64,000 bases of DNA from Synechococcales cyanobacterium VAR_4_metabat_354 (GTDB taxonomy: Bacteria > Cyanobacteriota > Cyanobacteriia > Cyanobacteriales > Chamaesiphonaceae), in contig JANOQI010000057.1 in assembly GCA_031414775.1 (NCBI GenBank), forward strand, positions 1 through 64,000, in the 5' to 3' direction. The translations under genes and the position numbers were made by a program. This document shows, in pieces, positions 1 to 22,887 of the stretch; position 1 is the first letter of the stretch; each line of letters starts with the position of its first letter. The notes beneath the pieces are model-generated. The model did no database searches. It worked only from the letters and a program-made list of their open reading frames with translations, and was not told the DNA's origin.

Positions 1-79
1 CGACAAGCACTCAATCATCATTTACTTGAGCGATTTATTTCCATGTTAGACCTTGACCTGACTTGGATTAAATCCCATC

Positions 80-505
80 CTAACTACGCCAGCCTTCTCC
101 AGTACGGTTCTTTGACACCATAAATCTGTCCGGACTATTGAGTAAGTAGCTACCAAATTCAAAATGATCGATCGTTGCAATTAAGATCTTATTCCCTGCG
201 GTGCTGGCAGCAGCTAGACTTGTAAAAACTACGGGACTAGTTGCACTAGGCTGAACAAGTTGACTTGTAAAAACTGCGGTACGCTGGCGCGGAAATGTCG
301 GTCCAGGTCTACTCAACGGGCGGCGTGGCGATCGACTAACTGGTCGCGATGAACGATTAGGCGATCGACTAGGAACACGGCTCGGACGACTGGCTGGTCG
401 TGATGCCGGGCGACTCGTGGCGCGACGGGGCGGGCGCACCTCCCATTCATATTCAGAATGATTGGCTGCTGGGGTTTCAAACAGCCAGGGGCTTGGTCTG
501 TTCAT
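80..505 (-). CDS. Hypothetical protein with LFETP...EYEWE N-terminal leader and Arg/Pro/Ser-rich linker; possibly truncated
   Basis: 141-aa ORF, last gene of the minus-strand operon in the window. N-terminus PWLFETPAANHSEYEWE resembles the leader of the 5829-6917 protein; RPASRPASRPSR low-complexity tract. Confidence 0.6.
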   Translation of the reverse strand: MNRPSPWLFETPAANHSEYEWEVRPPRRATSRPASRPASRPSRVPSRSPNRSSRPVSRSPRRPLSRPGPTFPRQRTAVFTSQLVQPSATSPVVFTSLAAASTAGNKILIATIDHFEFGSYLLNSPDRFMVSKNRTGEGWRS

Positions 506-545
506 TGCTTAAGTTCTCTATTATTCAAATATTGGAAATCAAAGG

Positions 546-1697
546 TTATCCCACTACTCTGGGAGCTGGCATTAACCCATTCGACCTGGCGAAAATGGGA
601 TCGCGGCGTTGGCCACTAGGCGGCGCTCCCGGCATATAAACATTGCGCGGTGGTGGTGTTGGCCGACTGATTCGCAGCGCTTCTTCGCTGGAAATCCACT
701 CTTCCGCTGGTTCAGCAATGCGATAGAGTAGCGCCTCAAAGTCGGTACGATTTTTTTGCAGTACAAACGGTTCAGCCAGCCAGCGAATAATGTCACGACC
801 ATTGACGGCCATCCGGTTCATGGTGCTGGCATTTACCGATTCATGGCAGTATTGCCACAACACTAATTCGATCAGTTCCCACTGATTGTCGGCACCAAAT
901 TGGGCACGTACATCCGGCGCGTTGAGTACTTTAAAAGCTTCGGCCAGAGCTTGACTGGTTTCCACCCGCAGGACGTTGATATAGCCATAGGAAGAGTTCT
1001 TCAGATTATTGCGCAGATCCAAACCCGATCGGCGGACGATCGCCACTGACCCAAAAGTTGGATCGGTGGCGCGTTCGCGGATTACTTCACTGATCCGCTT
1101 ATCGCGCCAGTACTTGGCAGTTTCCCCAATAAAGTGTGAAAACAGACCGTAGAACTGGGGATTAGCCCGAGCGCTGGCACCGGGATCGACTTTGGTGTAG
1201 CCAAAAACTCGGCTGTAAGCACGTAGTCGATCGAGTAAGTGGTAGCGCAAAATATTGCAATATAGCCCATAAGCTCCCTCCCCACTAGAAATCCGTAAGG
1301 TGCCTGCTCTAAATAGCTCCTGTAACTTATGCATCACGCGGAAAACTCCTAAGCGTTCGTGCATGTAGAGGTAATACAAATCGGCACTGGCCAGAATTCG
1401 ATCGCTAGTAACAGTGTCGTCGTAGTCGATCACCCCTTTAGAAATATGGGTATCGCCCAAATCCTTGGGTGAATCTTTGCCCAGACCTACTAAATCGGCC
1501 AGGCCGCCATCGGCGGGTTGTCCCTTGCCGTTGTGAGCAGCGTCGAATTGGTTCACTTGGTCATCCACGATCCGATTTAGGATGGCGGCTAGTTCGGGGT
1601 TGGCTACCAGCTCGGGACCAAGATTCTCAATAGTGTTTTGTAATAGTGCCGCAATTCGATCGTTTTGCTGGTCATAATCTTTTGTTTTCAAGTTCAT
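546..1697 (-). CDS. Uncharacterised 383-aa protein, probably mostly helical, of the acidic-leader operon
   Basis: Long ORF with AGGA RBS upstream, co-oriented in the operon; no catalytic motif recognised. Confidence 0.75.
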   Translation of the reverse strand: MNLKTKDYDQQNDRIAALLQNTIENLGPELVANPELAAILNRIVDDQVNQFDAAHNGKGQPADGGLADLVGLGKDSPKDLGDTHISKGVIDYDDTVTSDRILASADLYYLYMHERLGVFRVMHKLQELFRAGTLRISSGEGAYGLYCNILRYHLLDRLRAYSRVFGYTKVDPGASARANPQFYGLFSHFIGETAKYWRDKRISEVIRERATDPTFGSVAIVRRSGLDLRNNLKNSSYGYINVLRVETSQALAEAFKVLNAPDVRAQFGADNQWELIELVLWQYCHESVNASTMNRMAVNGRDIIRWLAEPFVLQKNRTDFEALLYRIAEPAEEWISSEEALRISRPTPPPRNVYMPGAPPSGQRRDPIFARSNGLMPAPRVVG

Positions 1698-2172
1698 GAG
1701 TTTTATCCTACTAATATCTGTAGTGACTACGAGATGCTTTTACTAAGGCTGGACGACTTGTGTCGTGATGGCTCCACTGCGAGGTTAAGACTACGGTCGG
1801 TCGTTAGTGCCTTTTTTCACACCAAAATCAGCCAAGGTATCTAATTGGAAAGCCAGCTCTAGCAGAGTTTGCTTTACCCGATCGAATGCTAGAATTCTCT
1901 CCAACAGAGTTTCTTTCACACCATTTTTATCGGATTGAATAAAGTCCAAGACAATGGCAATCACCCAAAAGAGGGTATCGGCTTGGTCGGTCACAAAATC
2001 TAGTCCAAAGCGTCCAGAGTCTGCTAGCACCGTCGGTGCTTCTAGAGTGGTAAAGCGATCGATCCAATCATTGAAATCATTGAGCGTGATATTGGGCAAT
2101 GAAACTAGATCTAAATCCAACTTAGAACCTTTTTTTTCTGGATCATCGACTTTTTTAGCAACATCATCATTA

Positions 2173-3346
2173 AGTAGAATGCCCACAATAAAAGTATGAT
2201 GAAGATAGAAAAACTAATTAAGTGTTATGCCAGCTCCACTCAGAATCAGTCTCACTTCAGAGCAAGAAAGAACCCTGCAAGAATTACGAGTTGCCTCTAA
2301 ATTACCGCAACGGACAAAAGATCGTGCGCAAATGTTACTAGCAAATGCTAATGGCTGTAATGCGCCAGCAATAGCACAATTCATGGGATGCCGAGAGCAT
2401 ACAGTACACGAAGCCATCAGACGCTGGCGAGTGTTCGGATTAGGAGGATTATGGGATGCAGAAAGATGTGGGTCAAAGCCTCGCTGGACAGAAGAAGACA
2501 TGGCATATCTAGAACAATATTTAGAAGAAGAGCAAAGAACATATAATTCTCCTCAATTAGCCCAAAAGTTGGAAAAGGAGCGTCATGTCCGCCTGAGTGA
2601 TCAACAAATTCGCAAGGTGCTAAAAAAAAGGGCTGGCGATGGAAAAGAACTAGGCATAGCCAGAAGCGGAAGCAAGACCTCATCAAAAGAGCGCTAAAAA
2701 TGGCGCATCTCAAGAAGCTAGAACTAATGATGTTAGATGGTTTTGTGGATTTAAAATATTTAGATGAGTCGGGATTTTGTGCTTGGAGTGGAGTCAGCTA
2801 TAGCTATAGTCGAACAGGTGAGCAAAAGAGATTAGAGCAACCCAAAAAAAGGGCGAAAAGGTTGAGTGTTATTGGATTACTAGGACAGGGTAAGGGCTTT
2901 GAGTATGGATTGATAGAAGGAAGTTTCAATAGCCAAGTCTACATTAAATTTATGGATATGGCAGCACACAGAGCTGCCCAACAATTCAAAAAAACTGGTC
3001 GCATCACAGTAATCATTCAGGATAATAGTTCTGTACACAGATCAAAATTGAGCCAAGCACAATGGAGTCGGTGGAATAAGATGGGGCTGTGGCTATTCTT
3101 CTTGCCACCCTACTGTTCTGAGCTAAATGCAATTGAGGGAGAATGGCACCAAATTAAAGCACATGAAATATGCGGTCGCATGTTTGCAGACGAAAGCGAG
3201 TTAAGGGAAGGAGTAATAGCTGCTATTGAGTCAAGAAATCAGAAAAACAAGATGCGTGTTGAACAGTTTTCATTAGTCTCATGAAGTATTATCTATCTTA
3301 ATTAGTATTGAAATATGCATACTCTTTTTGTCTTGTATGACCTACT
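2173..3346 (+). mobile_element. IS630-family insertion sequence with TA target duplication (2171-2172 and 3347-3348)
   Basis: Ends read TA|AGTAG... and ...CTACT|TA, with imperfect inverted repeats. The element carries an HTH ORF and a DDE ORF, and the empty site restores the host reading frame. Confidence 0.92.
2227..3284 (+). CDS. IS630 transposase, two ORFs joined by a -1 frameshift at A8G (2622-2630)
   Basis: ORF1 is HTH-like. The -1 frame reads KKGWRWKRTRHSQK into ORF2, which has the DDE motifs YLDESGF, IQDNSSVH and LPPYCSELNAIE. Confidence 0.92.
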
Positions 3347-4475
3347 TATCAATAGATAAATCAAAGGAAGTGGACAGGCCAGCCGCCAAAGTGGTAAATA
3401 AGGCGGCATCCGATCGACGTTCGCTTTCAGTAGCCAATCGAATCCAGAGCGGCCATAAAGCTGATGTTGCCATCGGCCACTACGGGTAATAGGATGCTAA
3501 CCTTCGCCAACCTCTCGCTGTAATGACCAGAGGTTTTTTCTGACTTACTTTCGCGCAAGAAGCGATTTGAGATGTTTTTTAAAGTATTGCGATAGTTTTT
3601 CAGCAGTTCTAATGCGGCCACTTGTGCCTCATCATCAAGAGTAACTGGGAAAATATTGCCAAAATTATTCTGGATCAATTTACCAGAGATAGTAGTAGAG
3701 ATATTGCTGAGCCGACCACGAATTCCTAGCTCATCAAGATTATCTTTTATGGTACATAAGTACAAATTGACCAAATCGTTACGTGGTTCGTCCAATCGGC
3801 CAAATTCGGCTACTAGTGAATCAATCTGGGTGCGAATTAGGGCTTTGAGGGCTTCCACCGCATCAATATCTGCTGTCGGATCAAATGGTTCGATCGATCC
3901 CAGCACCTGCAAAGCATCAGTAGCTACAATACTCGCTTGCCGATACAAATTGGCTTGTTCGATCGGCAGTTGACCCGCCAGACTAGCACCACTACTATCC
4001 GAAAGCACTTGATTCCCATCACCATAAGGGCTGTAGAGAGAAACAACACTCCGGGCTGGGGTAGACATTACCTGGCCATTCCTGGTCGTGGGGAAAGCAC
4101 TATTTAGAGCTTTCATGAAGCCAGTAGAACCTTTGCCAGGAGAACGTCCCAGTACTTGAGAGATAGCCCGCTCCACTTGGCGCGTCAATAAATTTGCGGT
4201 GCCAGTCGCACTGGTTCTAACTAAGCCATCTTCATAAGCTGTTGGTTCGTTAGTGGCCGATCGACTCAGAACCTGCACAATTTGAGCCAGCTGTTCGGGA
4301 ATACCCGGTCCTACCCTGGCAGGCTGGATGAAGAGATTAGCAATCAGGGATTGTCGCAAAAATTGCAATTGTTCAGGGCTTAGTGTTTTTTCTACATTAT
4401 TAATAAGAATCGGGACTGGAAAAGCCATGATTTATTACCTCGCAGGAGTTGAGAAAATGGGAAGGGAACTAAAAA

Positions 4476-5822
4476 CTAACGTCGCCCCAAGGTGCGATAA
4501 AAGTTATCAGTAATAGTCTGGGGAGTAGCTAGCTGTCGATCGACAGCAAAGCGAGCGGCGCTAATCATAAAGCGGAGCGGAATCGTCCCCGGATCTTGGC
4601 CAGCGGCTAGTCGTTGCCCAGCTAATTCGATCATCGCCATTTGAGCCGGGCCGAATTGAATAATTTGCGCCAAGGATTTATTCGCAAGTTGCCGGTAAGG
4701 CTGAAAAACCATCGTATCCACTACCATTTCAGCAGCAGGATAAAAGGTTTTCATAAACCACGGCGGAATATCAGCGGGAGTGATGCGCGGATACAGACGT
4801 TGCCACACCCGATGCAGATCGGCAGCCATGGAGCCACAGCCGAGCCGTTTGAGCAAAATCAGGTTAATCAGCACCCGCAAATAGGGAGTAGGATGCACCG
4901 AGTCGGGATCGAATTGCACCGTACTAGCCGGAGCACGACCGACCACATCCATCAAAGATTCGATCGCTGCCGCCCCCCCCCCAAATAAGCGCAAACATAT
5001 CGGCCATGGTCTCTTTGTGCCAGTTAGCCCAGACTTGGGCGATGGCGGCGGGTAGCCACCCCTCGCTAACTAAGCGCTGGTAAACCCGTTTCGGAATTTC
5101 TTCCCATAGTCCTAAATCGGCTTGCAGATTATGGGACACCTCATGCAACACGCTGGACAATGCCCAGACATTATCGAGGCGATGTTGGGGAATCACGATC
5201 AGCGGAAAAGGGTTGGGATTGCGCCGCAGTCGCATCATCGGTACGCCGCGCCGGAAAGTGACGGGGCTGAACCCACTGTTGGCATAGCTCATCGGGAGCA
5301 AGCTGGGGGTAGGTTGGGCGGTGCCGAGGCCGACATAAATGTCTTCGTAGCAGTTAGCCGCAATCCGATCGATCGCAACCGTTCCCCAAAACTAGATAGC
5401 CGTTGGACAAACAGATCGAAATAGAAGTCCCAGATTCCTTCGACGTAAAGAACTTGGTTCCCAATCATTTCTTTGCGTTCTAGTAACACCCGCCGTCTGG
5501 CGGCAGTTGGCTCCCGACGGGCAGCACTGGCAGCGGCCTCCACCCACCGTACTTGATCGACCACTTGGCTACGAAATCGATCGATCAAGCGGTTGACAGC
5601 TTCAATGTGCGCTTCACTAGGGGCAGCCGGGCTGGTGCCAAACTCATCCTTCGTAAATGGTCGTAGTGAACGGGCATGACGAGTTAAGTTAATAGCCTGG
5701 ATATTTAACCAGTTATCTAACAACTGTCGCTCACTGGCTGTTTTTGTCGCTGGCCAATTGCTGGTGGCTCCGGCTGGAGTAACTACAGACAATAATGTGG
5801 AAGATAACGATGCCGCTTTCAT
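4476..5822 (-). pseudogene. HEXXH zinc-metallopeptidase-like protein split by two frameshifts (~5370 and the G10 tract at 4973-4982)
   Basis: Three consecutive overlapping ORFs (5822-5289, 5301-4924, 4994-4476) form one protein with LHEVSH, WHKETMAD and HPTPYLR motifs. Confidence 0.8.
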
Positions 5823-5828
5823 AACTAC

Positions 5829-6917
5829 CTACATCATCCCAGCCGGTGCCCGCCGGGGGCTGGGCGGAGCTGTGCGTTGGCGCAGAGCGCCATTGCGTAC
5901 CATCGCCTGTTGGACTTTTTGGGGATTACCTAAAACCTGGTGGCTAGCGGCTGCCATGGCCTTGATGGCCATCGCTCCGGTAATGGGTTGACCAGAACGA
6001 GCGGCGGCTTTGAGCGTGGCGATCGCCCGGCGATGAATAGTTGGCATTATTCTGAGGAGTTGTTTGCCAACTAGACCTTGTTTCACTAAAGTTCCGGCTA
6101 CGGCCGCATTTGCTTGCGACAAAGTAGGGGTGATCGATCGGAGGGCTTTACTACCACCCATCGCCTTGATAGTAATGGGCAGAGCAGCACCGATGGCGGC
6201 TTGGGCCTCCGCTTCATTGGTAGCTTCAGCGGCTTGGGTAGCCAAAAACTCCGCAAGCGCAGCTTCATAGGCTACTTCGGTATTAGCGACTTCGGCGACA
6301 GCTTCATTCATGCCAAATAATGCTGCTTCCATTTGGGTAGCTTCCATTTCGCCTTCGCTGACTAGCTGGCTGGTTAGCTTAGCAGCTAATGGACCTGCTA
6401 TTAATCCAGCTCCCGGAATCATCCCAGCTAGCTTCCCCGCTATAATCGGAGCAAACTTTTTGGCCAGTGGGGCAGCCGCTTTTAATAATTTTTTAAAGCC
6501 CCTCCCAATTTTCTTCCAGAATTCGGCTTCATATTCATACTCTGGACTGCCATAGGGGTTTGCGCCTGCCATTTCCCACTCGTACTCTGGACTGCCACTG
6601 CCATAAGGATTTGCTCCTGACATTTCCCATTCATACTCTGGATTGCCGTAGGGATTAGCTCCCGGCATTTCCCATTCATTTTCTGGACTGCCATAGGGAT
6701 TAGCTCCTGGCATTTCCCACTCATATTCCATCGCTGGGGTGGAATACGAATTGCTGTAATGAGTTGCTTCTTGCATTTCCCACTCGCTTTCCATTTCTGG
6801 ATTGCTGTAGGGGTTATTAGCTTCTGGTGTTGTCCATTCATCCTCAAACTCTGGGGTGGAATAAGGATTTTGATTATAGTTAGCCGCGTGGGCTACGGGA
6901 GTTTCAAAAAGTGCCAT
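5829..6917 (-). CDS. Acidic-repeat-leader protein with a cationic amphipathic helix and an Ala-rich helical C-terminal domain
   Basis: AGGAG RBS 9 nt before ATG 6917 (MALFETP). Seven NPY..PE.EWE-type repeats are followed by FWKKIGRGFKKLLKAAAPLAKKF. Confidence 0.85.
   Translation of the reverse strand: MALFETPVAHAANYNQNPYSTPEFEDEWTTPEANNPYSNPEMESEWEMQEATHYSNSYSTPAMEYEWEMPGANPYGSPENEWEMPGANPYGNPEYEWEMSGANPYGSGSPEYEWEMAGANPYGSPEYEYEAEFWKKIGRGFKKLLKAAAPLAKKFAPIIAGKLAGMIPGAGLIAGPLAAKLTSQLVSEGEMEATQMEAALFGMNEAVAEVANTEVAYEAALAEFLATQAAEATNEAEAQAAIGAALPITIKAMGGSKALRSITPTLSQANAAVAGTLVKQGLVGKQLLRIMPTIHRRAIATLKAAARSGQPITGAMAIKAMAAASHQVLGNPQKVQQAMVRNGALRQRTAPPSPRRAPAGMM
6522..6869 (-). repeat. In-frame tandem peptide repeat, about 7 units of 14-23 aa (NPY[GS][STN]PE-x-EWEM-x-GA)
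   Basis: Recurring plus-strand blocks catttccca(c/t)tc and ctggactgcca/ctggattgc; visible in the translation. Confidence 0.9.
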
Positions 6918-6971
6918 GTTGGAATTCTCCTGATTGGTTAGATAAAACAATTGGTCTTGATCTGAACTTGA

Positions 6972-7796
6972 TCATCCGATCGAGGAGTTGGCCGTTGCTA
7001 CGGTCGAAAACCGGATCAGAGCATTGCGAGTCATAAACAACTTGACAGCTGCCGCAGTGCCCAACAACCGTCTAGTCTGCGCTGCCAACACACTACAAAC
7101 CAAAGCAGTAGTTAGCCGATAGCCCCACCGCCGTGCTGCTTGCAGACTAGCCACCGTCCAGCGCAAGATAGTAGGCAAGAGCCGCAACAAGCGCCGGCTC
7201 GCCGGACTATAACGATGCAAGCAGCGAATGAGACGGCCAGTTGCCTGGAGCATAAAAGGCAAGAAAGGACGCAGCAGTTGGGAGCTACCCATCACTCGCA
7301 ACGTTAGGGGTAACACCGCGCCAATTAAGGCTGCTGCTTCACTTTCACTGCCAGTGTGACTGGCTTCGGCAGCTAATACTTCCGCTAAGGCGGCTTCCTG
7401 AGCACGGCTGGTATTACTCACCACTACTGTTGTACTACGGTGGCTAAAAAATGCTGCTTCTTGTTGGTGGCTATTCTTTTCCCCACAACGGAGTAAGGGC
7501 AATAGTAGTTGATAGGTCAGTGAATTAAAACTCGATCGAGCAGCGGGTACCATATCGATCAAAATCCTCGCCAACAGCGGAGCTAAATCTAGAGCGAGTG
7601 GTACAACGCGCCTCGCCATTTGATTAATGCCCAATAATATTTGCTGACGCTCTAATGTCTGTTGATCGATCCGTTCTGGCTGAAAACCGTGAGCGATGGA
7701 AGAGCCTGACCTGTAATACTCGAATTGAGTAGGCAGCGGAGTCTCAACCTCCGGTAGAGTCATGCTTCTGCCGTTAGTATGAGCATAAATATTCAT
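6972..7796 (-). CDS. Paralogue of the 5829-6917 protein lacking the acidic repeats
   Basis: Collinear similarity: QEAALAEVLAAEA vs YEAALAEFLATQA, LIGAVLPLTLRVMG vs AIGAALPITIKAMG, LLRLLPTILR vs LLRIMPTIHR. GGAG RBS upstream. Confidence 0.8.
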   Translation of the reverse strand: MNIYAHTNGRSMTLPEVETPLPTQFEYYRSGSSIAHGFQPERIDQQTLERQQILLGINQMARRVVPLALDLAPLLARILIDMVPAARSSFNSLTYQLLLPLLRCGEKNSHQQEAAFFSHRSTTVVVSNTSRAQEAALAEVLAAEASHTGSESEAAALIGAVLPLTLRVMGSSQLLRPFLPFMLQATGRLIRCLHRYSPASRRLLRLLPTILRWTVASLQAARRWGYRLTTALVCSVLAAQTRRLLGTAAAVKLFMTRNALIRFSTVATANSSIG

Positions 7797-8000: not shown

Positions 8001-9689
8001 TTAAGATAAAGATCCAGCATAGGAAATCAGCTGCGAAATCCGATAGCGCAAGGTCTCTAGACCAATTCGCTCCGCTGCGGCGATAAAGATCGCTCGCGGA
8101 AACTCCTCCTCCGCCTGCGCCAGTCGCTCACTATCCACTTGATCGATTTTATTAAACACCACTATGGCTGGGCCTGCCGCGATCGGCATTCCTTCTAAAA
8201 TCGACATCACCGCCCGAATATGGCTGTGCCAAGCCGGATGGGACAGATCTACCAAATGAATCAGCGCATCCGCTTCAGTCACTTCTTCGAGAGTAGCGCG
8301 GAAAGAATCTACTAACGGCGGTGGCAGTTCGTGGATAAAACCCACCGTATCGGTTAGCAAAATTTGGCTGGTGTTGCCTTCGTTATCGATCGGAACCCGC
8401 ATCCGGCGAGTAGTAGGATCTAGCGTCGCGAACAATTTATCTGCCGCATAGACTTCGGCATTAGTCAGGGCATTGAGCAGCGTCGATTTACCAGCATTGG
8501 TATAACCAACGATCGCTACCGAGGGTACCTCTTTTTGCTGGCGCTGGAGACGCAGCCGCGACCGGTGGGCTTGAAGCTGATTAACTTCCTGCTGCAAGCG
8601 CGAAATCCGTTTCTGGATCGCCCGCCGCTCGGTTTCCAGCTTAGTTTCCCCCGGCCCTCTGGTTCCAATCCCACCACCCTGACGGGACAGAGCCTGACCC
8701 TTCCCCGTCAAGCGCGGTAGCTGATATTCTAACTGGGCTAGTTCTACTTGCAGTTTCCCGGCACCGGATTGCGCCCGTTGGGCAAAGATATCTAAAATCA
8801 CTTCCGTTCGATCGACCACCCGAATTCCAATCATCGTTTCCAGGTTCCGACACTGACTAGGGGAAAGATTGCAATCAAAAGCAATCAGATTGGCTCCCAC
8901 TTTTTGAGCCGCCAAGGCAATTTCTTGCACCTTGCCCTCACCTACCACCGTCTGGGGATGGGGCTTGGTGCGTTTTTGTTTGATGATCTGTAAGACTTCG
9001 CCCCCAGCGGTTTCCACTAGGCGAGTCAATTCATCCAAACCATCTTGAAAGCGTAAATCACCAACTGCCGTAGTTTTGAGACCAACAATCAGCACTCGAT
9101 CGGCTTGCACCCCGGCCTGATTGCCCGCAAATTCTTGGGAATATTCCTGCTCAATATTAGAAACCAGCTCAATCAAATCTTGATCGCTGACTACTTCTAG
9201 GGTCAGCGGCGGCGAAACTGTCCAATTCACCTCGGGGTGCGGCACCAAGTGCGATAGATAGACCTGTTGAACATAGCCAGTTACACCACCACCTCGTTTT
9301 TGAAAGCCGGTCGCTATTACATCTAAGCTGACCAGGGCATCAAGTCTTTGCAGCGCCATGGCCATTAAAGCCGCTTCACTGGGTGGCTCTACCTTTAATT
9401 GCGTGGTTACACACCTAATGCCGCTGAGACGCTCGGCACCATAGCGCGGTAACTCTAAGGGCGGAATTTGAGTTTGATGAGGTGTGCCCACTCCCACCCG
9501 CATGATTTGGCCACGCCGGTTCACATAGGCACAAATTGGTGACTTAATTTCACTACTAATGGCCGCTAGTTTTTGACTAAATTCTGGGGTAGTCAATCGA
9601 TCGACAGGCAGGCGTTCGTGATACAAGCGGCGCAACTGCTTGATTTGATTAGACTTGAGACCTTGTAATTTGCCGTAGATGATGTCGAT
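8001..9689 (-). CDS. hflX: GTPase HflX (long cyanobacterial form), probable ATC start
   Basis: GYTNAGKS, DTVG, NKID and GPGETKLE motifs. The frame extends upstream to ATC GAC ATC ATC TAC GGC at 9689, preceded by GGAGAG. Confidence 0.93.
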   Translation of the reverse strand: MDIIYGKLQGLKSNQIKQLRRLYHERLPVDRLTTPEFSQKLAAISSEIKSPICAYVNRRGQIMRVGVGTPHQTQIPPLELPRYGAERLSGIRCVTTQLKVEPPSEAALMAMALQRLDALVSLDVIATGFQKRGGGVTGYVQQVYLSHLVPHPEVNWTVSPPLTLEVVSDQDLIELVSNIEQEYSQEFAGNQAGVQADRVLIVGLKTTAVGDLRFQDGLDELTRLVETAGGEVLQIIKQKRTKPHPQTVVGEGKVQEIALAAQKVGANLIAFDCNLSPSQCRNLETMIGIRVVDRTEVILDIFAQRAQSGAGKLQVELAQLEYQLPRLTGKGQALSRQGGGIGTRGPGETKLETERRAIQKRISRLQQEVNQLQAHRSRLRLQRQQKEVPSVAIVGYTNAGKSTLLNALTNAEVYAADKLFATLDPTTRRMRVPIDNEGNTSQILLTDTVGFIHELPPPLVDSFRATLEEVTEADALIHLVDLSHPAWHSHIRAVMSILEGMPIAAGPAIVVFNKIDQVDSERLAQAEEEFPRAIFIAAAERIGLETLRYRISQLISYAGSLS

Positions 9690-21834: not shown

Positions 21835-22887
21835 ATGCAAATTGACTTCCATCATGGGGTGACTTATGTAGTCTCCAGGTTAGCGGGTTTCACCCATCCA
21901 GAGGCCGCGATCATTGCCTACAGCGCTCAGTATGTTGATGATGCCATCAATCAAGGGGTGGTGAGATTTAAAAATAGCAAAACCTTATTCCGGCGGATTA
22001 GTTCAGCACATCGGATGTTGGACTATCGCAACTTTGAAGCACTGGCTAAAAATCCGGTCTGGATTCCTTTTCATTTTTTGCCTAGTGGTGGTGAGCATCC
22101 CGATCAAGATTTAGTGGACAAACTAATCTGCCGCCCTAATAGCCCGGTGGCACAAGCAATGGTCAGGCATTGTATCCTGCAAAAAAACCATCTCCATGGT
22201 CTCCATCGGCTAGGTATTACCATGCACGTTTTTGCTGATACTTGGGCGCATCAAGGCTTTGCCGGGATCAATCACGAAATCAATAAAGTATCTGAGCTAG
22301 TGGATGCTGATGGTCAACCGGATCACCATTTGCGCGATCGATTAGCAGGCTATTTTGTCAGCAAAGCGCTACCCCTTGGTCACGGTGGCGCCTTGAGTCA
22401 TCCCGATCGACCTTATTTAATTTGGGGCTATACCAATGGGCGCAAAGAAACTGTCCGCCGCCACAATCCCAGCGATTTTTTTACTGCCGCTGACGAAATG
22501 TGTAAAACCATGCAACGCTATCGCTTAGGTGATCCCGATGCCCAGGTGCCGGGGTTGAGGGAACCAGACAGGTCACATATCGCTCATTTAATCAGTAATC
22601 TTACTAGTCCTAATAAACAAGAGCGCCACCAGCAGTGGTTGCAGCAGATTAGCCAAGGAAAATTCAGTTTTGGGGCTAGTCAGGTTAGCTATGTCGATAA
22701 AGGAATGGGATCTTGGAAACATACCGCCTTGGGCACCGACAGTACCGAAGATGCTACTGATGAAATTTTCACCTATCAAAACAGTTTTTTGGGTAGTGAT
22801 TGGAAACTTTTTCACGAGGCACTGCAAGTTCATCGACTTTTTATCTTGCAAGAGCTGCTCCCCCAATATGGAATTCGCCTGACCTAG
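21835..22887 (+). CDS. DUF6765-like hypothetical protein (putative metal-dependent hydrolase)
   Basis: MQIDFHH N-terminus; SAQYVDD, PFHFLP and HVFADTWAHQGF motifs. Confidence 0.65.
   Translation: MQIDFHHGVTYVVSRLAGFTHPEAAIIAYSAQYVDDAINQGVVRFKNSKTLFRRISSAHRMLDYRNFEALAKNPVWIPFHFLPSGGEHPDQDLVDKLICRPNSPVAQAMVRHCILQKNHLHGLHRLGITMHVFADTWAHQGFAGINHEINKVSELVDADGQPDHHLRDRLAGYFVSKALPLGHGGALSHPDRPYLIWGYTNGRKETVRRHNPSDFFTAADEMCKTMQRYRLGDPDAQVPGLREPDRSHIAHLISNLTSPNKQERHQQWLQQISQGKFSFGASQVSYVDKGMGSWKHTALGTDSTEDATDEIFTYQNSFLGSDWKLFHEALQVHRLFILQELLPQYGIRLT

What the first reader, a model, noticed from the sequence alone, without database searches (positions are those of the whole stretch)
80..7796. Six-gene operon of uncharacterised proteins built around acidic 'E-x-E-W-E' leaders: candidate undescribed secretion/toxin or assembly system
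Seen: six tightly spaced minus-strand genes, most with a visible RBS. In order: an amphipathic protein (7796-6972), its paralogue with an acidic repeat leader (6917-5829), a HEXXH protein (5822-4476), a ~490-aa unknown (4428-1791), a 383-aa unknown (1697-546), and a small protein sharing the leader (505-80). None has a Sec signal peptide, and I recognise no described pathway. Inference: a dedicated protease and two unknown proteins process, load or export substrates tagged by an acidic Glu/Trp leader. The operon may continue beyond the left edge of the window.
Basis: partly seen in the sequence, partly recalled or inferred. Interest (0 to 1): 0.88.

Follow-up and report, generated by a model that had tools for sequence, protein, structure and literature searches.

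The report
Unnamed tagged-cargo antibacterial toxin system
This is a broken copy of a widespread, unnamed gene cluster that appears to package wall-cutting and other attack enzymes marked by an acidic tag and release them against neighbouring bacteria, without using any secretion machine we could recognise.

Summary
The six genes are real, but this copy is decaying. The HEXXH gene has two frameshifts, the '490-aa' gene a frameshift and an IS630, and the last gene is a cargo gene cut by a second IS. Intact relatives show a fixed cassette: A (1-3 acidic-leader, amphipathic proteins), H (zinc-peptidase motif), B, C, then a variable slot. The order A-H-B-C holds in 66 of 66 loci with enough upstream DNA, across at least seven phyla. 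The slot holds tagged, signal-less proteins: peptidoglycan hydrolases and binders (33 of 89 scanned), nucleases, phospholipases and trypsins. A distant type keeps A-H-C-cargo (30 of 31 loci have A and H) and occurs in Methanosarcina, an archaeon without peptidoglycan, with a lytic transglycosylase as cargo. That points to antagonism rather than self-remodelling. No core protein matched Pfam, NCBIfam, PHROGs, PADLOC or PDB sequences; the C and H models gave no clear fold match. The core has no channel or ATPase, and 23 of 56 carrier genomes lack a contractile-tail tube. Best reading: an undescribed polymorphic-toxin packaging and release system. Synteny, tag and cargo are shown; cleavage, assembly, export and killing are inferred.

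The parts
6972..7796 (-). A1: paralogue of A with a short, degenerate leader and the conserved basic helical C-terminal domain; open frame, 274 aa
   Evidence: (48.5% to the first gene of the intact operon L010)
5829..6917 (-). A2: N-terminal tag, ~130-aa acidic repeat leader, cationic amphipathic helix, Gly/Ala-rich segment, second acidic stretch, basic helical domain; open frame, 362 aa
6468..6521 (-). cationic amphipathic helix directly after the acidic leader of A2 (hydrophobic moment 0.88, net charge +6); candidate membrane-active segment, putative cleavage site at its start (inferred)
4476..5822 (-). H: zinc-peptidase-like gene (HExxH...ExxAD...HP), pseudogene in three pieces; intact relatives ~450 aa
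1791..4428 (-). B: conserved protein of no known family; pseudogene here (frameshift near 3432, IS630 in the variable linker); intact relatives about 440-650 aa, some with an N-terminal transthyretin-like domain
2171..3348 (+). IS630-family insertion sequence (two-ORF transposase); ends found at other contig ends; absent from relatives
546..1697 (-). C: signature protein of the system, all-alpha model, no known family; open frame with an in-frame loss of four codons in a conserved stretch
146..505 (-). truncated cargo gene: tag (505-471), acidic EWE motif, Arg/Ser/Pro linker, and a stretch resembling by eye the first strand of the OmpA-like domains of other cargo
1..145 (.). end of a multi-copy ~1.36-kb insertion sequence (13 such left ends and 9 right ends in the assembly; full copy on C30) that cuts the cargo gene and breaks the contig; IS701/IS4-like by my reading, family not tested

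Best explanation
A degraded copy of an undescribed microbial-antagonism cassette, LuxR - A(1-3) - H - [X] - B - C - [variable tagged cargo] - M20 dipeptidase - amidohydrolase. SHOWN: the fixed gene order; a variable slot after C whose proteins share a short aromatic-acidic N-terminal tag with the A proteins, lack a hydrophobic signal core, and carry peptidoglycan-cutting or -binding, nuclease, phospholipase and protease domains; an invariant zinc-peptidase motif in H; no transmembrane or ATPase core gene. INFERRED: (1) The cassette is induced through its LuxR regulator. (2) C, the one protein seen in all three types, forms with B and X a soluble helical scaffold or particle that gathers proteins bearing the tag. 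(3) The acidic leader also keeps the cationic amphipathic helices of A inactive, as acidic propeptides do in membrane-lytic peptides (recalled analogy). (4) H cuts at the acid-to-amphipathic junction; the dipeptidase and amidohydrolase may clear the leader fragments. (5) Freed A helices breach a membrane, that of the producer for release, of the target for entry, or both, so that cargo reaches the wall, periplasm or cytoplasm of competing bacteria. The window's copy is probably inactive.
For: Order A-H-B-C in 66 of 66 loci with at least 5.5 kb upstream of C, out of the best 80 of 360 genome hits. H and type-1 C occur in the same 7 of 401 genomes of the phylum; the eighth H hit is a distant type of the same cassette. 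Cargo: 33 of 89 hand-picked slot proteins hit peptidoglycan hydrolase or binding families, 3 nucleases, 2 Het-C, 1 PLD (within the 33), 7 trypsin (4 within the 33). Het-C is described as a polymorphic-toxin domain in PMC3482391 (passage). Tag: the first gene after C is tagged in 20 of 30 clade-1 loci, against 8 of 2681 ORFs of the own genome; none of 32 tagged cargo has a hydrophobic N-core. The tag pattern has only 2 of 27 matches outside the operon in 32 carrier genomes and is found in 3 of 392 genomes without C; its codons vary at silent sites. H motif complete in 68 of 68 type-1 and 41 of 41 type-3 proteins. A: 118 acid-to-amphipathic switches in 78 of 107 proteins, median moment 0.45 against 0.23 shuffled. 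Type 3 keeps A and H before C in 30 of 31 loci, with similar cargo (11 of 37 peptidoglycan-directed, 7 trypsin, 3 PLD). It lies in Methanosarcina thermophila and M. flavescens with an SLT plus PG_binding_1 cargo; Methanosarcina has no peptidoglycan (established knowledge).
Against: Nothing here shows expression, cleavage, binding, export or killing. No dedicated immunity gene was seen after nuclease cargo in the 18 loci printed. Cargo is not obligatory: M20 or the amidohydrolase follows C directly in 12 of 74 loci. In clade 2 only 9 of 34 first genes met my acidity rule and 25 did not; some of these are mis-called starts or shadow ORFs, and one cargo family begins with a globular domain. Conserved charges of C are balanced (10 basic, 12 acidic), so no basic tag-binding surface is indicated. 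Only a third of the amphipathic segments exceed the 95th percentile of shuffles. The H model did not match a solved zincin. The C homology between types 1 and 3 is moderate (65% probability, E 6e-5, 93 columns). The tag pattern was derived from the same cargo genes, so in-operon matches are by construction.
Confidence: 0.55

Rival explanations
1. Programmed self-lysis or abortive-infection cassette: H unmasks pore-forming A (protease plus autoinhibited pore former, as in bacterial gasdermin systems, recalled), and the tagged lysins destroy the producer's own wall.
For: Protease beside autoinhibited-looking amphipathic proteins; signal-less wall hydrolases; no immunity genes seen; cargo sometimes absent.
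Against: A lytic transglycosylase cargo in Methanosarcina, which has no peptidoglycan. Cargo differs between close relatives and reaches six genes in one locus, more than self-lysis needs. No PADLOC match better than E 0.001 for 12 representative proteins. No sensor domain in the core.
Confidence: 0.15
2. A cargo-loading or accessory module of extracellular contractile injection systems encoded elsewhere in the genome.
For: 33 of 56 carrier genomes have a T4-gp19-type tube gene, against 61 of 151 in the window's order. Signal-less archaeal hydrolases are weakly enriched with sheath genes (PMC12352652, passage). Het-C cargo is known from PVC systems (PMC3482391, passage).
Against: 23 of 56 carriers have no tube match, among them a single-contig, 100% complete genome with an intact operon (G017) and four 99% complete ones. 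No tail genes were recognised among the recurring neighbour families of the 80 loci. The baseline is from one cyanobacterial order only, and many carriers are MAGs.
Confidence: 0.12
3. A peptide-bacteriocin cluster: A is a polyprotein precursor whose amphipathic cores are cut out by H and trimmed by the dipeptidase and amidohydrolase; B and C are chaperones or maturases, and the lysins are helpers.
For: Several A proteins alternate acidic spacers with short amphipathic cores (36 of 107 have two or more switches). An M20 dipeptidase (NF006053 above cut-off) lies in 26 and an amidohydrolase in 32 of 80 loci.
Against: A keeps a conserved ~170-aa folded-looking C-terminal domain. No transporter or known RiPP maturase is among the recurring neighbours. 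Large enzymes carry the same tag. Type 3 lacks the two hydrolases in the loci mapped.
Confidence: 0.1
4. A developmental or structural system (resting-cell coat, sheath, cell separation or storage body) in which the hydrolases remodel the host's own envelope.
For: Many hosts are filamentous or soil bacteria; OmpA-like and PG_binding_1 anchors are common; basic C-terminal tails in A.
Against: Patchy presence (9 of 401 genomes), decay here, nuclease and phospholipase cargo, and presence in a peptidoglycan-free archaeon.
Confidence: 0.08

Closest known systems
Polymorphic toxin systems (Zhang et al. 2012, PMC3482391; 12 passages seen)
   Same: Conserved N-terminal trafficking mark with interchangeable C-terminal toxic domains; shared domain pool (Het-C, nucleases, wall hydrolases); associated protease.
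   Different: The mark and the core genes match none of the delivery routes named in the passages seen; no immunity genes evident; the protease is a separate gene.
Streptomyces umbrella (Umb) toxin particles (PMC11062931; 12 passages seen)
   Same: Possible free particle built from a few dedicated proteins that carries variable toxins; trypsin domains nearby; works without a contact machine.
   Different: Umb proteins use a TAT signal, ALF repeats, lectins and some immunity genes. No signal core or ALF match here; hosts include diderms, monoderms and archaea.
Extracellular contractile injection systems (PVC/Afp)
   Same: Envelope-independent, patchy across bacteria and Methanosarcina, signal-less cargo with N-terminal loading segments (recalled).
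   Different: No tube, sheath, baseplate or ATPase gene recognised in the cassette; 23 of 56 carrier genomes lack a tube match.
Zincin plus FxSxx/acidic-peptide processing systems of VMAP ternary loci (PMC7159879; 6 passages seen)
   Same: A zincin-like peptidase beside a substrate with acidic residues, in multicellular bacteria.
   Different: There the substrate is small and releases a C-terminal peptide, tied to NTPase ternary systems. Here substrates are 250-1500 aa with N-terminal acidic leaders, and there is no NTPase.
Acidic-propeptide membrane-lytic precursors and protease-activated pore formers (animal antimicrobial peptide precursors, viral membrane-penetration peptides, bacterial gasdermins; recalled, not from a call)
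   Same: An acidic segment precedes a cationic amphipathic helix that starts with Phe; a protease is encoded next door.
   Different: No sequence or fold relationship was found; analogy only.

Membership tests
Polymorphic toxin system (broad sense) | conserved N-terminal trafficking region with variable C-terminal toxic domains | tested here: met
Polymorphic toxin system (broad sense) | cognate immunity gene directly downstream | tested here: inconclusive
   none evident in 18 loci printed; one 50-aa ORF after a nuclease in L063; no immunity library scan of small ORFs
Polymorphic toxin system (broad sense) | toxicity to competing cells | not testable with these tools
   needs experiment
Extracellular contractile injection system | tube, sheath, baseplate and ATPase genes in the locus | tested here: not met
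   core proteins match no such Pfam or PHROG family; recurring neighbours listed
Extracellular contractile injection system | a tube gene somewhere in every carrier genome (if accessory) | tested here: not met
   33 of 56; none in complete genome G017; 48 of the 80 loci plus 8 handles were given
Umbrella (Umb) toxin particle | TAT signal on the toxin scaffold | tested here: not met
   hydrophobic N-core proxy only: 0 of 78 C, 0 of 77 B, 0 of 126 A, 1 of 69 H, 0 of 32 tagged cargo; SignalP not available
Umbrella (Umb) toxin particle | ALF-repeat ring scaffold | tested here: not met
   no ALF hit in the Pfam scans of core and cargo; no PDB sequence hit for A, B, C or H profiles
Trans-envelope secretion systems (types I-XI) or holin | membrane channel, transmembrane subunits or ATPase | tested here: not met
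   Kyte-Doolittle 19-mer of 1.9 or more in 0 of 91 C, 0 of 67 B, 0 of 107 A, 2 of 64 H; no NTPase family among core genes
Gluzincin-type metallopeptidase (protein H) | HExxH, distal Glu ligand (ExxAD) and downstream His-Pro | tested here: met
   invariant in 64 of 64 aligned; 68 of 68 and 41 of 41 by pattern. The comparison with M48-like motifs is recalled.
Gluzincin-type metallopeptidase (protein H) | zincin fold | tested here: inconclusive
   whole-model searches were filled by the N-terminal coiled coil; the catalytic part was not folded alone
Gluzincin-type metallopeptidase (protein H) | proteolytic activity on A or cargo | not testable with these tools
   needs assay
Gasdermin or ClyA-type multi-part pore toxin | fold of the pore subunit | tested here: inconclusive
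   C against ClyA: E 0.75, TM 0.17-0.20; A and B were not folded
RiPP cluster | short precursor plus recognisable maturase and transporter | tested here: not met
   A is 240-400 aa with a conserved C-terminal domain; no maturase or transporter among recurring neighbours

The most novel reading that the evidence does not exclude
A new class of protein-delivery particle shared by bacteria and archaea. An all-helical scaffold of unknown fold (C with B/X) reads an acidic-aromatic N-terminal tag and loads interchangeable effectors. It is armed by its own zinc protease, which frees virus-like membrane-penetrating helices from A, so that cargo leaves the producer and enters other species without any known secretion system. 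In Methanosarcina it would be an archaeal weapon against bacteria.
Probability: 0.3. Interest if true: 0.92.

Novelty: categorically new. Interest (0 to 1): 0.8.

Why it matters
Thousands of unannotated proteins (2444 type-1 and 1649 type-3 C relatives in two searches) belong to one conserved cassette that points to a route of effector release not found in the libraries and papers searched. It would give a candidate explanation for a set of signal-less peptidoglycan hydrolases, including archaeal ones. It defines a short tag that can be tested directly as a loading signal, and it names cultured carriers with intact operons (Nostoc sp. TCL26-01, Methanosarcina thermophila). The rating 'categorically new' rests on the machinery: in logic it works like a polymorphic toxin system, but it failed the membership tests of each delivery family considered. 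Function is still inferred.

Tried and rejected
Family scans: no Pfam or NCBIfam hit for window or intact core proteins; B only a weak TTR-52 in 8 of 67; PHROGs best E 0.004 and PADLOC best E 0.001 on 12 proteins, not credible. PDB sequence searches with A, B, C, H and type-3 C: nothing below E 0.07. Fold searches: C none at E 0.001 in PDB or BFVD, VIA best Z 6.2 on an N-terminal hairpin; H none, best Z 9.1 on the coiled coil. These absences do not prove a new fold. ESM Atlas gave no usable hit for C, and an unusable model of B (pLDDT 0.35). B-C complex prediction: no answer (score 0.20, mark 0.32), no evidence either way. B is not detectably related to C, nor to the 660-aa or 363-aa proteins of other types. 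No longer fused form of H among 8000 candidates, weak evidence. Not in viral contigs or 50,697 phage records; 5 plasmid records. No RNA holder listed. The rest of the cut cargo gene was not found beside the 9 right IS ends. Papers: ten searches by theme, domain names, six accessions or locus tags and five motifs listed no paper on this system. I read only 'find' passages of four papers and searched supplements of PMC12352652 for Methanosarcina without a match, two of 13 files not searched. Subscription journals, bioRxiv supplements and the supplements of PMC3482391 and PMC7159879 were not seen and could list these genes. Seven look-ups of earlier findings returned two notes; neither was used.
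Full report
Observation. The window is the start of contig C57 of a 3.56-Mb genome; its relatives and neighbouring genes are cyanobacterial. I call them A1, A2, H, B, C and cargo. A1, A2 and C are open frames. H is in three pieces and B in two, with an IS630 element at 2171-3348; the cargo gene is cut at about 146 by another multi-copy element. Contigs of a run that may be the source repeat the window without differences. Relatives about 90% alike from two other studies join across the IS630 site, run on past 146 into other sequence and have 12 more bases in C. The breaks are therefore recent decay of this lineage, not the design. Contig C13 begins with a homologue of a gene found behind the cargo in L023, a remnant of the M20 gene, an intact amidohydrolase and a LuxR gene. 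That it continues this operon is inferred from the order in relatives.

Distribution and synteny. C has 2444 relatives among 8000 candidates scored and 721 among 50%-cluster representatives. A scan of 185,579 species genomes confirmed 360 of 408 candidate stretches; the best 80 came from cyanobacteria, Chloroflexota, Acidobacteriota, Proteobacteria, Actinomycetota, Planctomycetota and Eremiobacterota. All 66 loci with at least 5.5 kb upstream of C have A, H and B in the order A-H-B-C. LuxR lies in 52, an amidohydrolase in 32 and an M20 dipeptidase in 26 of the 80. A helical ~190-230-aa gene often lies between H and B (22 and 11 loci, two families). Pairwise identities of C, H and B across 48 loci correlate (rho 0.83-0.89), as expected of a unit inherited whole; kin are not independent here. 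In 401 genomes of the phylum C is in 9 and H in 8, with 7 shared. Nine of ten intact proteins looked up were in the collection, all named 'hypothetical protein'.

The variable slot. Genes between C and the two hydrolases differ from locus to locus. I took 89 of 162 candidate ORFs for Pfam, dropping by eye shadow frames and unrelated genes. Of these, 33 hit peptidoglycan-cutting or -binding families (M74, GH25, SLT, Amidase_2, CHAP, DUF2272, M23, VanY, M15, Extensin-like, PG_binding_1, OmpA). Three hit nucleases, two Het-C, seven trypsin and one PLD; most of the rest hit nothing. In the window's clade these proteins start with a W-L-F-E-[AT]-P tag followed by acidic E-x-E-W-E stretches. The first gene after C is tagged in 20 of 30 loci, and 14 of 43 A proteins carry the tag core too. 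A DNA pattern for the tag matched 27 times in 17 of 32 carrier genomes; 25 matches lie in the slot by my arithmetic, and the reversed control gave none. In the phylum sample it matched the two clade-1 carriers and 3 of 392 genomes without C, with one control match. So the tag belongs to the cassette, and orphan cargo is rare. In the second clade the evidence is weaker: 9 of 34 first genes met my acidity rule, 25 did not, and 10 further loci have no cargo. No immunity genes were evident.

The core. A proteins alternate acidic runs with amphipathic segments that start E-x-F, and end in a conserved basic helical domain. H keeps HExxH, ExxAD and HP in every full-length copy examined. Its model is confident (pLDDT 85), with an N-terminal coiled coil. 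C folds as an all-alpha protein (pLDDT 79). Neither model found a clear structural neighbour. No core protein has a convincing transmembrane helix or signal core.

Related types. Long C homologues lie in operons with an S8 protease, other unnamed genes and acidic-leader EndoU or amidase-protease cargo (type 2: L020, L021, L103, L104). The one extra H hit led to type 3: A-like (about 800 aa), H, a small gene, a distant C, then acidic-leader cargo. Its C has 1649 relatives and aligns to type-1 C with 65% probability. Of the best 80 of 400 metagenome loci, 30 of 31 with enough upstream DNA have A and H; 54 of 81 A and cargo proteins carry an [ESD][SIT]PF tag, against 8 of 1416 background ORFs. 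Of 37 cargo scanned (of 40; three near-duplicates dropped), 11 are peptidoglycan-directed, 7 trypsin and 3 PLD; 2 were transposases. Three loci belong to Methanosarcina: two C proteins are identical to M. thermophila and M. flavescens records and the third clusters with them. Two of their cargo proteins were scanned, and both have SLT and PG_binding_1 domains. Since Methanosarcina makes no peptidoglycan, this cargo is best read as aimed at bacteria.

Mechanism. The cassette behaves like a polymorphic toxin locus with its own unrecognised delivery core. The most likely chain is: induction, tag-guided gathering of A and cargo on C/B, cleavage by H, membrane breach by freed A helices, and attack on neighbours (0.55). 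Self-lysis (0.15), an accessory of contractile tails (0.12; tube in 33 of 56 carriers against 61 of 151 in the order, absent from a complete carrier), a peptide-bacteriocin cluster (0.10) and a developmental role (0.08) remain open. No step after synteny, tag, cargo content and motif conservation is shown.

Novelty. Ten paper searches and passages of four papers gave no description (see Tried and rejected; the library lacks most subscription journals). The window's own copy is a ruin. The value lies in the family it exposes.

Noticed in passing
L020:1-14422, L021:7607-20000, L103:11590-21761, L104:6269-22426: Type-2 operons: S8 protease, long C homologue, a ~360-aa unnamed family (two copies in L104), Trypco2-like gene, DUF3467, and acidic-leader EndoU or amidase-C70-C92 cargo; some on plasmids.
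   Followed up: partly
L148:7276-15426; L162, L164, L165: Type-3 cassette (A-H-small-C-cargo), present in Methanosarcina thermophila and M. flavescens with a lytic transglycosylase cargo.
   Followed up: yes
L018:3369-12068, L019: A divergent type-1 operon (35% identity in C) in which B is replaced by a 660-aa protein and a collagen-repeat protein.
   Followed up: partly
L023:13467-14108; own genome C13:503-1000: A 165-aa untagged gene behind the cargo slot whose repeats look by eye like a fibre or beta-helix; no Pfam hit.
   Followed up: no
L063:7183-8259, L068:11135-12787, L073:13107-15670, L082:8920-10314, L085:11147-12052: A clade-2 cargo family with a conserved ~110-aa globular N-terminal domain in front of variable nuclease or protease-like tails; a possible second loading signal.
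   Followed up: no
L040:10657-11949, L057:11216-12145, L069:11174-12322, L074:2952-4139: Cargo genes that are A-domain proteins with an added variable C-terminal tail, linking A and cargo in one architecture.
   Followed up: no
L010:6880-7896, L018:11205-12068, L036:12391-13242, L059:12418-13329: An unnamed ~290-aa gene recurs beside the cassette in 7 of 80 loci, often near LuxR; no Pfam hit.
   Followed up: no
window 4972-4981: The second frameshift in H lies in a run of ten G; phase variation is conceivable, but the other breaks make plain decay likelier.
   Followed up: partly
window 8001-9635: HflX-family GTPase gene directly upstream; ordinary housekeeping border of the insertion.
   Followed up: no
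window 21835-22887: A 350-aa ORF elsewhere in the window whose start resembles by eye Het-C/phospholipase-C-like hydrolases; no tag; not scanned.
   Followed up: no
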